From contig JBNZDD010013686.1 of NCBI GenBank assembly GCA_050575255.1, forward strand, positions 1,813,021 through 1,877,020: 64,000 nucleotides of DNA, written 5' to 3'. Below are positions 51,001 through 54,000 of the stretch, piece by piece. This DNA comes from Harriotta raleighana. Lineage: Eukaryota. Numbering within the stretch: position 1 is the first letter of the stretch; each line of letters starts with the position of its first letter. The position numbers were made by a program.

Positions 51001-54000
51001 TGGCAGCAGAGTTACCAGTCTGAATGTAACCCACACTTCCTGCTTTAATTGTGCAAGTGAACAGCTCCTAAGTGGGTGAGGCTGCAACACTATTGCTATA
51101 TTCGCGGCCTCATTCTATTAAGTACAGCATTTTTGGTGCTTTCCTCTGTAAACCAAGTGTGTGCAGAGGAGATTATTTTGATCAGAACTGTGGGCAGAAC
51201 TGTGTCTTGGTGGACGTGCAACAACGGTAAGAAACGTATCTAAAGCTTTGATCTCCTGGGTTTAGACTATTACAGCTACAAGTTTTCAAAGAAACACTTT
51301 TAATTTCCATTTTAATTCCAATTCTATATCAGTTTAAGAAAACCAAAGAGAATGTGGCCAGAGACTATTTTTTTATTTAACGCTATAAAATAGATTGATG
51401 AGGAGTATTTTAAAAAGAAGCCATTTTATTTAAAGTACTTCCTTAACTGATCAGCATTTTACTGAATGTTACTGCAGTATTTGGAGTTTGCGATGCATTC
51501 TTCCTGACGTATTTGTAATAGTTTCTGAATGGCACTGTTGATATCTGGAATAGCCTGACATGTCTTTCCATGGTGGATTTATAGTATGGTAATGTTTCTG
51601 GATTATTTCAACTAGATCATTTCTGAAATAATAATCCTTGCAATTGATACTGTGCCTTATTGCGTCGAAAGGTAAAGTGTGTGTTGAATTAGTGAAAAGA
51701 TGCAGAGAAAGGAGAAACAGTAGTGGATTATCCAGAAGGAAATGTATTGGAAGTTTCATTCAATATCAAGGAAGATTGATATAAAACAAAACATCGAAGA
51801 GCAATGCAGAGACGAGAAGTAACTGTGCATTGAAAGGAATTTGAAAATCTCAATTAGATGAACTCAGTCACCCTCTCCTTATTAGACAGTTTGCCCTTTT
51901 CAGTGTGACCCACTTGCCAACTTCAGATCAGTTTAATCAATTCATAATCAAGCGAGCAAATGTTAATCTTGCTCACGTTGATTTGAACACATAAACCTCA
52001 ATGAAATCAATCCCTACAATAACAACAACAACAAAGCGTATGAATATATTGCCCCTCACGTAGGCTAGCGTTTCAGGATAACGTTCAGCTGTTTTAAAAT
52101 ATATCCATTGACTTCAAATCTCCCCTTTTTCTGTCAGACAATATGTACTTTAATTAGATTGCAATATATATATATCTACAGACACAATATATAGTATTGT
52201 ATAATATAGAATAATTGTATAATAAAATAGTATTGTAACTATTATCCATTATCTTTATTTAAAAAAAAGTTAGACATCACCCTGGCCATTACCTCTCAGT
52301 AGGAATAAATTTCCAATTTGGAGACTGGGCCTATAATACTACAGTATTTGTAAACTAGCAGTGTTCATAATTAATAATTGCATTTGATGCGACAACTGGG
52401 TCATGCCAAAATGTCTCTCAAAAGAACTCCAGAAACTTTCTGTCGGGTGAAGTGACTACATCTGTTGGCGAATACAAATAGGTCCAGAGGAAAACTAGAC
52501 ATGTTTTAATTGAACTTGCACAAAGTGAAAACCCTACACTCTCAGACCTTCTTCCTCCCATTAGTAGTCACGGTCCAGCATTCCCTATTCACATTCCAAG
52601 GATGACAAGAGATATTCATCACACTGGTCACGCATGCAGAGACCAACCGACCAGTATGATGAATATCTCTTGTCATCCTTGGAATGTGAATGGGGAATGC
52701 TGGACCGTGACTACTAATGGAAGTAAGAAGGTCTAAGAGTGTGGGGTTCTTGAGGACTGATGAGGGTGGGGTTGATTTAAAAATAGCACTGGAGGGCGAC
52801 AACACAGACCTGAGCTCAGGATTCGCTGATAAATTTGGGTATGCACAGATTCAACGTGTAAACGACCGTTAAATACCCACCAATTTGGGTTTCAAGTAAT
52901 AAGGACGTATCTGTATGTCGAGAATCATTGTCAAGCTCTGAAGTGATTGCACATTAGCAGCTGCGGCTGATTCATTTCACACAGTTGTGCTCTCTATTTG
53001 CGCTCACCTTTCCCCTGTTTTGCTGGGCAGACGCCTATTACAGGTACCCCGAGCTCACCATGACTGAGCGCTTCGACTGCCACTATTGCAAGGAATGCCT
53101 GAATGGGAAGAAGTACATCCAGAAAGATGACCACCCTTGCTGTGTGAAATGCTATGAAAAATTTGTTGCCAACACTTGTGCGGAGTGTAAGAGACCGATT
53201 GGCTGCAATTCCAAGGTATTTACGTCGCTTCAGTTGCTGAGAACATCTTGCCTGGCCAGAGCAGCTATCTGTCTTCATCTTGTTGTTCACTACTGGAAAA
53301 AGTTTGATCTTACAAACCCCCCCCCACCCACCTCACTTACTAGGAGAGTTGCAATTTTATGAATCCCCCCCCTGATGTGAGGTTCACCAATGTTTGTGCA
53401 AGTCGTAAATTGTGGGTTTTAAGCTCGACTCTAAACCTGGGAATGAAGTCTTCACTAAAGTACATTGAGGAATAATTGAGGTTGGGAGATAATACCTCGA
53501 GATACAATACTGTAGTTTGGGACACCACACATCATGGGACTGCCTGGATGATAGTGGAAGGCGAACTGGGCGAACCATGGTCTTCTTTTGCTTAGCAAAT
53601 TCTTATGTTCTTATGTAGTCCAGATTATGAAACAGGAGTTTCACCAACAATCCAGCATTAATGCAACTGTAGGGGGGGAGGGGAATATTGATTGCTCTGG
53701 TTTTCTTTGACATGGAAAGCCTCGCATTTTCTTATCATTTTAACAATCTTAATGTCCGTACAAATCTGTTAATTAAAAATAAATTGCGTCAAAGCTGAGT
53801 GGTGACCAAGGAGACGTAGGTTGAATGAACTCATCTGTTAATGTTACATACTCAGCGCCAGCTGGTGGCTATTTGGAGAAGCAAATCACATAGATTATTT
53901 ATGTACAGTATTGATATTTGCTGCAAAATATTTCCAGGCGGCCTCTACCGAGCGATTTAAAACTTTTTTTGTTAAAGTAACAAGGGGATAAAGAACATTT

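What the first reader, a model, noticed from the sequence alone, without database searches (positions are those of the whole stretch)
52530..52748. Near-perfect 100-bp hairpin just upstream of the first FHL1 coding exon
Seen: two 100-nt arms, 94% complementary, with a 19-nt loop, ending about 280 nt before the acceptor at 53030. In the sense RNA the six imperfections are two G-U wobbles, three A-C mismatches and one C-U, leaving uninterrupted Watson-Crick runs of about 28 and 35 bp. It resembles no other repeat in the window and I see no clear target-site duplication or Tc1/hAT-type end. Known: long intronic dsRNA is a substrate for ADAR (A-C mismatches favoured) and for Drosha/Dicer. Inference: a hairpin-RNA/miRNA/endo-siRNA source, an editing or splicing element, a cruciform next to an enhancer, or an unrecognised foldback MITE.
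Basis: partly seen in the sequence, partly recalled or inferred. Interest (0 to 1): 0.65.

Follow-up and report, generated by a model that had tools for sequence, protein, structure and literature searches.

The report
Long intronic palindrome upstream of FHL1
A real 219-base DNA palindrome lies just upstream of the first protein-coding exon of the muscle gene FHL1 in a cartilaginous fish; it is most likely a harmless foldback repeat, not a microRNA gene.

Summary
Two 100-nt arms (52530-52629, 52649-52748) are 94/100 complementary around a 19-nt loop and end 282 nt before the acceptor of the ATG exon of an FHL gene. Folding is about 23 SD better than shuffles on either strand. It is the only strong inverted repeat in the 64-kb window and has no other copy there.

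The window is not human. It comes from a cartilaginous fish (best exon match Callorhinchus milii, 88%).

- **Not a known RNA family:** no Rfam family reaches its gathering score. The sub-threshold hits are structure-driven matches to long plant hairpins.
- **Not a canonical miRNA precursor:** the stem is about three times the canonical pri-miRNA length.
- **No transposon signature:** there is no target-site duplication or recognisable transposon end, and pairing stops abruptly at both outer ends.
- **No sign of RNA-level selection:** the five transition mismatches split 2 G-U : 3 A-C in sense and the reverse in antisense.

My best reading is a selectively neutral foldback. It is either a MITE-like insertion or a local inverted duplication, and I cannot tell which. 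Its one predictable consequence is a roughly 100-bp dsRNA in FHL1 pre-mRNA, which ADAR would edit before it is discarded with the intron.

Genome copy number, orthologous loci and RNA data could not be checked with these tools.

The parts
52530..52629 (+). Left arm of the palindrome (100 nt)
   Evidence: the repeat finder I1; base-by-base comparison
52630..52648 (+). 19-nt spacer/loop. It contains a small internal GCATGC palindrome that is off-centre.
   Evidence: It is unpaired in the + strand fold and partly paired in the - strand fold.
52649..52748 (+). Right arm of the palindrome (100 nt), 94/100 complementary to the left arm
52749..53030 (+). 282-nt stretch between the hairpin and the exon. 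It ends in a polypyrimidine tract and the AG acceptor. It holds a MEF2-like motif at 52777-52786 and a second GTGGGGTT at 52765-52772 that repeats the last 8 nt of the right arm.
   Evidence: Sequence read. The motif is 1 of 26 in the window. GC is 45%, like the arms.
53031..53215 (+). First coding exon of the FHL gene (ATG at 53060, donor after 53215). Context only, not part of the hairpin.
   Evidence: Pfam LIM_FHL2-3_N scores 48.2 bits against a cut-off of 35. The exon is 88% identical to a Callorhinchus milii LIM protein. tblastn of that protein places further exons at about 54568-54774, 54944-55174, 56039-56242 and 57296-57451.

Best explanation
The feature is a real, moderately aged DNA palindrome (foldback repeat) of 219 bp. 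It lies in what is most likely the intron just upstream of the ATG exon of FHL1 in a cartilaginous fish.

I read it as the neutral relic of one DNA-level event, followed by about 6% divergence between the arms. Two origins fit:
- A local inverted duplication of the template-switch kind. I lean slightly this way, about 0.4-0.45, because there is no target-site duplication.
- Insertion of a MITE-like foldback element, about 0.35-0.4.

How it 'works' is passive. If it is transcribed with FHL1 pre-mRNA, it snaps into a roughly 100-bp duplex. ADAR would bind and hyper-edit that duplex in the nucleus, and it would be discarded with the intron. It is too far from the acceptor (282 nt) to hide the branch site. 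I expect no dedicated small-RNA, splicing or enhancer function.

Shown: the structure, its uniqueness in the window, its sharp ends, the lack of a TSD and the lack of any family match. Inferred: that it is transcribed, that it is edited, that it is neutral, and how it arose.
For: - **Structure:** real and far beyond chance.
- **Sharp boundaries:** only 3 of 24 positions outside the arms are complementary, so it came from a discrete event.
- **No TSD:** nothing of 2-11 bp at the ends of the inverted repeat. The only longer match (TGTTTTAA/TGATTTAA, 7/8) lies 20-24 nt outside the arms. Among about 2,100 boundary combinations I estimate about 0.8 such matches by chance.
- **No strand bias in the mismatches:** 2 G-U to 3 A-C in sense, 3 to 2 in antisense. 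So there is no sign that pairing is kept in either RNA.
- **No Rfam family at gathering score:**
- **No protein relatives of the open frames through the hairpin:** searches found none. One search gave 2 hits, both spurious. So the arms are probably not an inverted copy of a conserved coding exon.
- **Below the thresholds under selection:** at 100 bp and 94%, it is under the >300 bp, >96% class reported as depleted from pre-mRNAs. Shorter or imperfect inverted duplicates are about as common in pre-mRNA as controls (PMC7006430, passages).
- **Editing precedent:** elephant-shark brain shows about 200,000 hyper-editing sites, and self-palindromic repeats are edited without a partner (PMC5625713, passages).
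- **Origin precedent:** a single template-switch event can create a perfect stem (PMC10710096, passages).
Against: - None of the decisive data could be obtained: genome copy number, orthologous loci, RNA-seq, small-RNA-seq.
- That the hairpin is transcribed rests on an inferred acceptor at 53030 and an upstream exon I did not find.
- A 100-nt arm is longer than the template-switch events described (a 28-nt example; stems of 30-55 nt were the paper's criterion).
- Hairpin GC (46%) is in the top 4.6% of 219-nt windows and well above the left flank (33%). That could mean foreign (TE) DNA, although the right flank is 45%.
- One copy in 64 kb says little, because a family of a few thousand copies would usually be absent from so small a sample.
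- Neutrality is a default here, not a result.
Confidence: 0.65

Rival explanations
1. It is one copy of a multi-copy foldback MITE family (a non-autonomous DNA transposon whose whole body is a pair of long terminal inverted repeats) that inserted into the FHL1 intron. This is a rival on origin only. Its consequences would be the same passive ones.
For: - Its size (219 bp), discrete ends and imperfect long arms fit palindromic MITEs.
- GC is 46% against 33% in the left flank.
- The outermost bases AACCCTA / TGGGGTT recall the CCC...GGG ends of piggyBac-type elements. That motif is recalled from memory and comes from no call.
- Palindromic Harbinger repeats of the frog are an edited example (PMC5625713).
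Against: - There is no TSD at the arm ends for TA, TWA, TTAA or 8-bp types. Beside CCC/GGG the flanks read AAAA and TTCT, not TTAA. At about 3% divergence per arm a TSD should still be visible.
- There is no second copy or fragment in 64 kb, whereas a tRNA-derived SINE has at least 10.
- The one chondrichthyan mobilome described is 'almost exclusively' retroelements and poor in DNA transposons (PMC4350176, passages). Mammals are placed in that same class and still carry MITEs, so this point is weak.
Confidence: 0.38
2. It is a lineage-specific small-RNA gene: a long hairpin processed by Dicer (endo-siRNA or hairpin RNA), or a young miRNA-like locus hosted in FHL1.
For: - It is a very stable hairpin on the sense strand of a gene that is highly expressed in muscle in other vertebrates (recalled).
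- New miRNAs can start as perfect hairpins made by template switching (PMC10710096) or from palindromic MITEs (recalled: MADE1 and mir-548).
- Rfam's sub-threshold hits are all to hairpin miRNA families.
Against: - All of those Rfam hits are below gathering score (80.7 vs 150; 60.4 vs 100; 49.4 vs 88; 43 vs 160). The alignments are carried by pairing, not by sequence.
- The 100-bp stem is about three times the 35-bp optimum for the Microprocessor (PMC10710096).
- Neither strand shows a wobble bias.
- A literature search on FHL1 as a miRNA host gene returned 5 papers. By their listings none shows a miRNA hosted in FHL1.
Confidence: 0.1
3. It is a functional cis element. Either an RNA structure modulates use of the nearby acceptor or editing-dependent splicing, or a DNA cruciform influences a neighbouring muscle enhancer or alternative promoter.
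For: - It lies 282 nt from the acceptor of the ATG exon.
- A MEF2-like motif (52777-52786) and a CAGCTG E-box (about 52959) lie between the hairpin and the exon. Both consensus motifs are recalled.
- GC rises from 33% to 45% at the hairpin.
Against: - The branch-site and polypyrimidine region is not within or next to the stem.
- The MEF2-like motif is 1 of 26 in the window (13.8 expected from shuffles), so it is not specific to this place.
- No CpG island or other promoter signal was found between 23 and 53 kb.
- No conservation data are available.
Confidence: 0.07
4. It is an assembly or library artefact: a chimeric foldback read or a mis-join.
For: The assembly does have join artefacts. Exact or near-exact duplications flank single-N positions at 9671, 33470 and 41865.
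Against: - The arms differ at 6 of 100 positions, whereas a foldback chimera would give identical arms.
- The nearest N is more than 10 kb away.
- Sequence on both sides continues normally into a well-formed exon.
Confidence: 0.03

Closest known systems
Palindromic (foldback) MITEs, e.g. the approximately palindromic Harbinger repeat of the frog that is edited on its own (PMC5625713, passage); human MADE1 (recalled)
   Same: A short (about 200 bp) non-coding unit made almost wholly of two inverted arms with a short loop. It forms dsRNA when transcribed inside a host gene.
   Different: No target-site duplication, no recognisable superfamily terminus, and no second copy in 64 kb. Genome-wide copy number is unknown.
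Hairpins created by template-switch mutations during replication (PMC10710096, passages)
   Same: A single event gives a perfect inverted repeat with a short spacer, sharp ends and no TSD. It lies in transcribed DNA and later collects point mismatches.
   Different: The arms here are 100 nt. The example I read was 28 nt and the paper's hairpin class was 30-55 nt. No ancestral (pre-event) state is available to prove the event.
Intronic inverted-repeat dsRNA substrates of ADAR (PMC5625713 and PMC7006430, passages)
   Same: An intramolecular duplex of about 100 bp at 94% pairing in a pre-mRNA. It falls in the size and identity class that is tolerated in introns.
   Different: Most such duplexes come from two neighbouring copies of a common repeat. 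This one is a self-contained palindrome of sequence otherwise unique in the window. Editing was not tested.
Canonical animal pri-miRNA hairpins, and long-hairpin endo-siRNA loci (Drosophila hpRNA, mouse endogenous shRNAs; recalled)
   Same: A stable stem-loop on the sense strand of a host gene.
   Different: The stem is about three times the length of a pri-miRNA stem. No Rfam family is reached. No small-RNA evidence exists. The arms show no similarity to any protein-coding sequence that could be a target.

Membership tests
Known miRNA precursor family (Rfam) | Score at or above the family's gathering threshold | tested here: not met
   Best scores: MIR5380 80.7 bits vs 150; MIR5649 60.4 and 55.7 vs 100; mir-4529 49.4 vs 88; MIR5048 43 vs 160. 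The gathering-mode scan of the whole window gives only 3 tRNA-like hits, none at the hairpin.
Canonical animal pri-miRNA | Stem of about 35 bp with single-stranded basal flanks and an apical loop of at least 10 nt | tested here: not met
   The stem is 100 bp. The loop is 19 nt, which fits. The criterion is taken from PMC10710096 (passage).
Canonical animal pri-miRNA | Discrete 5p/3p small-RNA reads with 2-nt offsets | not testable with these tools
   No small-RNA data are reachable. miRNA lists for sharks may sit in supplementary files, which are closed.
MITE / foldback DNA transposon | Terminal inverted repeats | tested here: met
   The whole unit is a 100-nt inverted repeat at 94%. Any palindrome meets this trivially.
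MITE / foldback DNA transposon | Target-site duplication flanking the ends | tested here: not met
   The scan covered 45 x 47 boundary pairs and k = 2-11. It found nothing at the ends of the inverted repeat. The only longer match is a 7/8 8-mer lying 20-24 nt outside, about what chance gives.
MITE / foldback DNA transposon | Multiple dispersed copies in the genome | not testable with these tools
   In the window there is 1 copy only. No eukaryotic genome collection is available. Proxy protein searches with the open frames found no relatives, but they are weak evidence.
Template-switch / local inverted duplication | Sharp junctions, no TSD, spacer between the arms | tested here: met
   3 of 24 positions are complementary outside the arms. 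There is no TSD. The spacer is 19 nt.
Template-switch / local inverted duplication | Ancestral or sister-species locus carrying only one arm | not testable with these tools
   No orthologous chondrichthyan DNA could be fetched.
ADAR dsRNA substrate | Intramolecular duplex of tens of bp in a transcribed RNA | tested here: inconclusive
   The duplex is shown by folding. Transcription is inferred from the position upstream of an acceptor. No upstream exon or RNA evidence was found.
ADAR dsRNA substrate | Clustered A-to-G mismatches between RNA and DNA | not testable with these tools
   No RNA-seq data.
Foldback assembly chimera | Identical arms, often beside a gap or contig end | tested here: not met
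   There are 6 differences in 100 nt. The nearest N is at 41865.

The most novel reading that the evidence does not exclude
The hairpin is a young, lineage-specific long-hairpin RNA locus inside the muscle gene FHL1 of a cartilaginous fish. In this reading it was born in one step by template switching or MITE insertion. It is co-transcribed with its host and diced into endo-siRNA or miRNA-like small RNAs, or it acts through ADAR editing. That would be an early stage of small-RNA gene birth caught in a basal jawed vertebrate.
Probability: 0.08. Interest if true: 0.5.

Novelty: new member of a known kind. Interest (0 to 1): 0.2.

Why it matters
If it is what I think, it matters little. Intronic inverted repeats of this size and identity are common and tolerated in animal pre-mRNAs, and this would be one more.

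Its modest value is as a clean, datable example of a 100-bp-arm palindrome without a target-site duplication. If comparison with sister species showed it to be single-copy and locally generated, it would extend the known size range of template-switch-type events that create hairpins in one step. If small RNAs came from it, it would be a case of de novo small-RNA gene birth in a chondrichthyan.

Tried and rejected
- **Rfam, permissive mode, on 52300-53000.** It returned 9 matches, none at gathering score. The top ones are plant or long-hairpin miRNA families matched through pairing only, so I rejected them as evidence of membership.
- **Protein-space proxy for copy number.** The frames through the hairpin are open: 84 aa on + and 102 aa on -.
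  - The search for homologous proteins on residues 35-102 of the - frame found nothing among proteins of 56-179 aa or 30-55 aa.
  - The exhaustive search of 1.84 billion representatives with the + frame gave 2 hits. One is a BRCA2-repeat protein whose repeats weakly match residues 2-34, mostly flank. The other is a DUF2914 protein with no aligned stretch. Both are spurious.
  - These negatives are weak, because non-coding eukaryotic DNA is poorly represented among predicted proteins.
- **TSD and terminus hunting.** TA, TWA, TTAA and 8-bp duplications at the arm ends are all absent. The CCCTA start resembles piggyBac ends (recalled), but the flanks are not TTAA. The offset 7/8 8-mer and the 4-mers are at chance level.
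- **Composition as a test of foreignness.** Inconclusive. The arms differ from the left flank but match the right flank.
- **'Enhancer' motif.** The MEF2-like site next to the hairpin is 1 of 26 in the window.
- **Literature.**
  - MITE + shark + hairpin gave 2 papers, both irrelevant by listing.
  - FHL1 + intronic miRNA + host gene gave 5 papers, none with FHL1 as host by listing.
  - Elephant shark + novel miRNAs + hairpin + small RNA gave 3 papers, seen as listings only.
- **Not done.**
  - No exon joining: the spliced FHL model was handled exon by exon.
  - No filling of N runs.
  - The prokaryote, phage, plasmid and E. coli collections were not searched, because they cannot hold this locus.
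  - Supplementary tables that might list shark miRNAs or repeats are closed.
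Full report
**What is there**

The window is 64 kb, 37% G+C, with CpG observed/expected 0.38 and a few N positions. At the coordinates given, the repeat finder reports two 100-nt arms, 52530-52629 and 52649-52748. They are 94% complementary and separated by 19 nt.

A base-by-base comparison gives six imperfections and no indels. Read in the + RNA they are:
- U.G at 52535/52743 and 52586/52692
- C.A at 52543/52735, 52557/52721 and 52622/52656
- C.U at 52554/52724

The structure is far beyond chance:
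- RNA MFE on + is -175.3 kcal/mol against -63.2 +/- 4.9 for 200 dinucleotide shuffles (z -22.8).
- RNA MFE on - is -185.5 (z -23.5).
- As single-stranded DNA it is -103.5 (z -21.1).

In a scan of the whole window for inverted repeats with arms of at least 25 nt within 2 kb, 9 pairs are listed and this is by far the strongest. The next are a pair of SINE copies (111 nt, 72%) and a 49-nt pair at 84% separated by 1.2 kb.

**Where it is**

The window is not human, and I take it for a cartilaginous fish.
- The exon that starts at 53031 (after ...ttttgctgggcag), with ATG at 53060 and a donor after 53215, encodes 52 residues.
- These carry the FHL-type N-terminal half-LIM domain (Pfam PF25076, 48.2 bits against a cut-off of 35).
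- Searched alone against the large protein set, the exon's best match is a Callorhinchus milii LIM protein at 88% identity. The other 31 of 32 hits are FHL1/2/5-type or unnamed proteins at 58-73%.
- A tblastn of that C. milii protein against the window places four further coding exons at about 54568-54774, 54944-55174, 56039-56242 and 57296-57451.

Only exon-by-exon comparisons were made.

Upstream, exon-sized frames match the Na+/H+ exchanger family as single exons just under threshold (20.1 and 24.8 bits against 26.2). This fits an SLC9A6-like neighbour, the arrangement I recall from the human X chromosome.

The hairpin ends 282 nt before the acceptor. That it is intronic is an inference from the good acceptor and from the gene structure of FHL genes elsewhere (recalled). 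I found no upstream non-coding exon, no CpG island and no promoter signal.

**Is it a member of a repeat family or a known RNA?**

*Within the window:* no. A sensitive blastn of 52480-52800 against the window finds only itself and its own inverse. The other 18 of 20 rows are 11-20 nt with E >= 0.7. In the window self-comparison (83 pairs) it pairs with nothing else, while a roughly 300-bp tRNA-derived SINE has at least ten copies at 68-82% identity.

*Rfam:* at gathering thresholds the window yields 3 hits, all tRNA-like. Their coordinates fall inside copies of that SINE. In permissive mode on 52300-53000 there are 9 matches, none reaching its gathering score:
- MIR5380: 80.7 vs 150
- MIR5649: 60.4 and 55.7 vs 100
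- mir-4529: 49.4 vs 88
- MIR5048: 43 vs 160

The printed alignments are carried by base-pair columns, not by sequence. These are long-hairpin families, and the hits say only 'long perfect hairpin'.

*Genome-wide copy number,* the decisive test, cannot be run. The only genome collection open here is prokaryotic.

*Protein-space proxy.* As a proxy I used the frames that happen to stay open through the palindrome (84 aa on +, 102 aa on -).
- No protein of 56-179 aa or 30-55 aa shares words with the hairpin part.
- The exhaustive search of 1.84 billion representatives gave 2 hits. Both are spurious: a BRCA2-repeat protein whose repeats weakly match mostly flank-encoded residues, and a DUF2914 protein without an aligned stretch.
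- Neither frame matches Pfam.

These negatives argue weakly against the arms being an inverted copy of a coding exon. They say almost nothing about MITE copy number.

**Anatomy bearing on origin**

Complementarity stops abruptly. Only 3 of the 24 positions beyond the arms can pair.

There is no target-site duplication at the arm ends for any common length. Beside the CCC...GGG termini the flanks read AAAA and TTCT, not TTAA. A scan of 45 x 47 candidate boundaries found only a 7/8 match of an 8-mer lying 20-24 nt outside the arms, plus a few 4-mers. I estimate that as about the chance expectation.

Tandem Repeats Finder sees no sub-repeats in the arms.

The hairpin is 46% G+C, in the top 4.6% of 219-nt windows. 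That compares with 33% in the 500 nt to its left and 45% in the 282 nt to its right. So composition does not mark it as foreign.

The last 8 nt of the right arm, GTGGGGTT, recur 16 nt downstream. This could be a microhomology left by a template switch, or chance.

The six arm differences are five transitions and one transversion. The transitions give 2 G-U and 3 A-C in the sense RNA, and the reverse in antisense. That is the even split expected from unselected mutation of a DNA palindrome. n = 5 is too few to exclude selection.

**What it most likely is and does**

I read it as a neutral foldback repeat made by one DNA-level event and since diverged by about 6% between arms.

Two origins fit.
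- *Local inverted duplication of the template-switch type.* It explains the missing TSD, the sharp ends and the single copy. Such events are documented to create perfect stems in one step (PMC10710096, passages). The example I read was 28 nt and the paper's class was 30-55 nt, so 100 nt would be unusually long.
- *Foldback MITE.* It explains the size and architecture. The missing TSD counts against it. So, weakly, does the report that the one analysed chondrichthyan mobilome is poor in DNA transposons (PMC4350176, passages).

I put these at roughly 0.4-0.45 and 0.35-0.4.

Either way the expected behaviour is passive. If transcribed with FHL1 pre-mRNA it forms a duplex of about 100 bp. Long, nearly perfect dsRNAs are the main targets of ADAR hyper-editing across Metazoa, the elephant shark included. 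Self-palindromic repeats are edited without a partner (PMC5625713, passages).

At 100 bp and 94% it lies below the >300 bp, >96% class that is depleted even from pre-mRNAs. Shorter or imperfect inverted duplicates are about as frequent in pre-mRNAs as tandem controls (PMC7006430, passages).

It is not a canonical Microprocessor substrate, because the stem is about three times the preferred 35 bp (PMC10710096). The branch-site region is about 250 nt away from the stem.

**Rivals**
- *Small-RNA locus (about 0.1).* This remains possible, because long hairpins can be diced directly (recalled) and new miRNAs do arise from such hairpins.
- *cis-regulatory role (about 0.07).* Its only support is proximity and a MEF2-like motif that is 1 of 26 in the window (13.8 expected).
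- *Assembly artefact (about 0.03).* This is unlikely. The arms differ at 6 sites and the nearest N is more than 10 kb away, although this assembly does show duplicated sequence around single-N joins.

**What stayed unchecked**
- Genome copy number and Dfam/RepeatMasker classification.
- Orthologous loci in other chondrichthyans.
- RNA-seq, small-RNA-seq and long reads.
- The metagenome and viral contig collections, which are closed.
- Supplementary tables of shark miRNA and repeat papers, which are closed and may bear on the small-RNA and MITE claims.
- N runs were left as they are.

**Verdict**

The feature is real but most probably ordinary, so interest is low (0.2). On novelty it is a new member of a known kind: a long intronic inverted repeat, or foldback.

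Noticed in passing
window 9429-9623 = 9672-9866 (100%, 195 bp; N at 9671); 41798-41864 = 41880-41946 (100%, 67 bp; N at 41865); 33308-33469 ~ 33471-33623 (94%, 162 bp; N at 33470): Exact or near-exact direct duplications sit immediately either side of single-N positions. They look like unmerged contig overlaps at assembly joins. The first one duplicates a Na+/H+-exchanger exon, so a gene model there would carry a false repeated exon. The Ns were not filled.
   Followed up: partly
window 1-285, 3051-3334, 4701-4983, 23286-23581, 28847-29122, 46664-46972, with fragments at 21985-22064, 33005-33095, 33550-33745, 37307-37431, 45159-45271, 61109-61242: A tRNA-derived SINE of about 300 bp has at least 10 copies at 68-82% pairwise identity. 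Rfam's three tRNA hits and ARAGORN's 'tRNA-Ser' at 46899-46970 fall inside its copies and are probably not real tRNA genes.
   Followed up: partly
window 54105-54153 and 55347-55395 (BLAST: 54100-54183 vs 55319-55402): An inverted pair (49 nt at 84%; 86 nt at 79%) brackets FHL coding exons 2 and 3 (about 54568-55174). This is the kind of intronic complementarity that can favour back-splicing (circular RNA). No other copies are in the window.
   Followed up: no
window 6511-22896, + strand: Exons of a Na+/H+ exchanger gene (Pfam PF00999, 20.1 and 24.8 bits as single exons, against a cut-off of 26.2) lie upstream of FHL on the same strand. This fits SLC9A6-FHL1 synteny as I recall it from the human X chromosome.
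   Followed up: partly
window 53003-53059: The C. milii protein model (P0001, 298 aa) aligns from its residue 1 to 53003, that is through the inferred acceptor at 53030 and 57 nt upstream of the ATG. From the two percentages I work out about 11 of those 19 extra residues to be identical. Either that model has a read-through N-terminal extension, or the sequence just upstream of the exon is conserved between the two species.
   Followed up: no
window 21497-21733, 42325-42571, 5800-6490: A second interspersed repeat (82% over 252 nt between the first two copies) also occurs as tandem-like units in a proline/serine-rich open stretch at 5.8-6.5 kb. It is not classified.
   Followed up: no
window-wide; 52777-52786: The MEF2-like pattern YTAWWWWTAR occurs 26 times against 13.8 expected from shuffles (0 of 100 shuffles reach 26). 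This probably reflects AT-rich low-complexity runs. One copy lies 28 nt after the hairpin.
   Followed up: no
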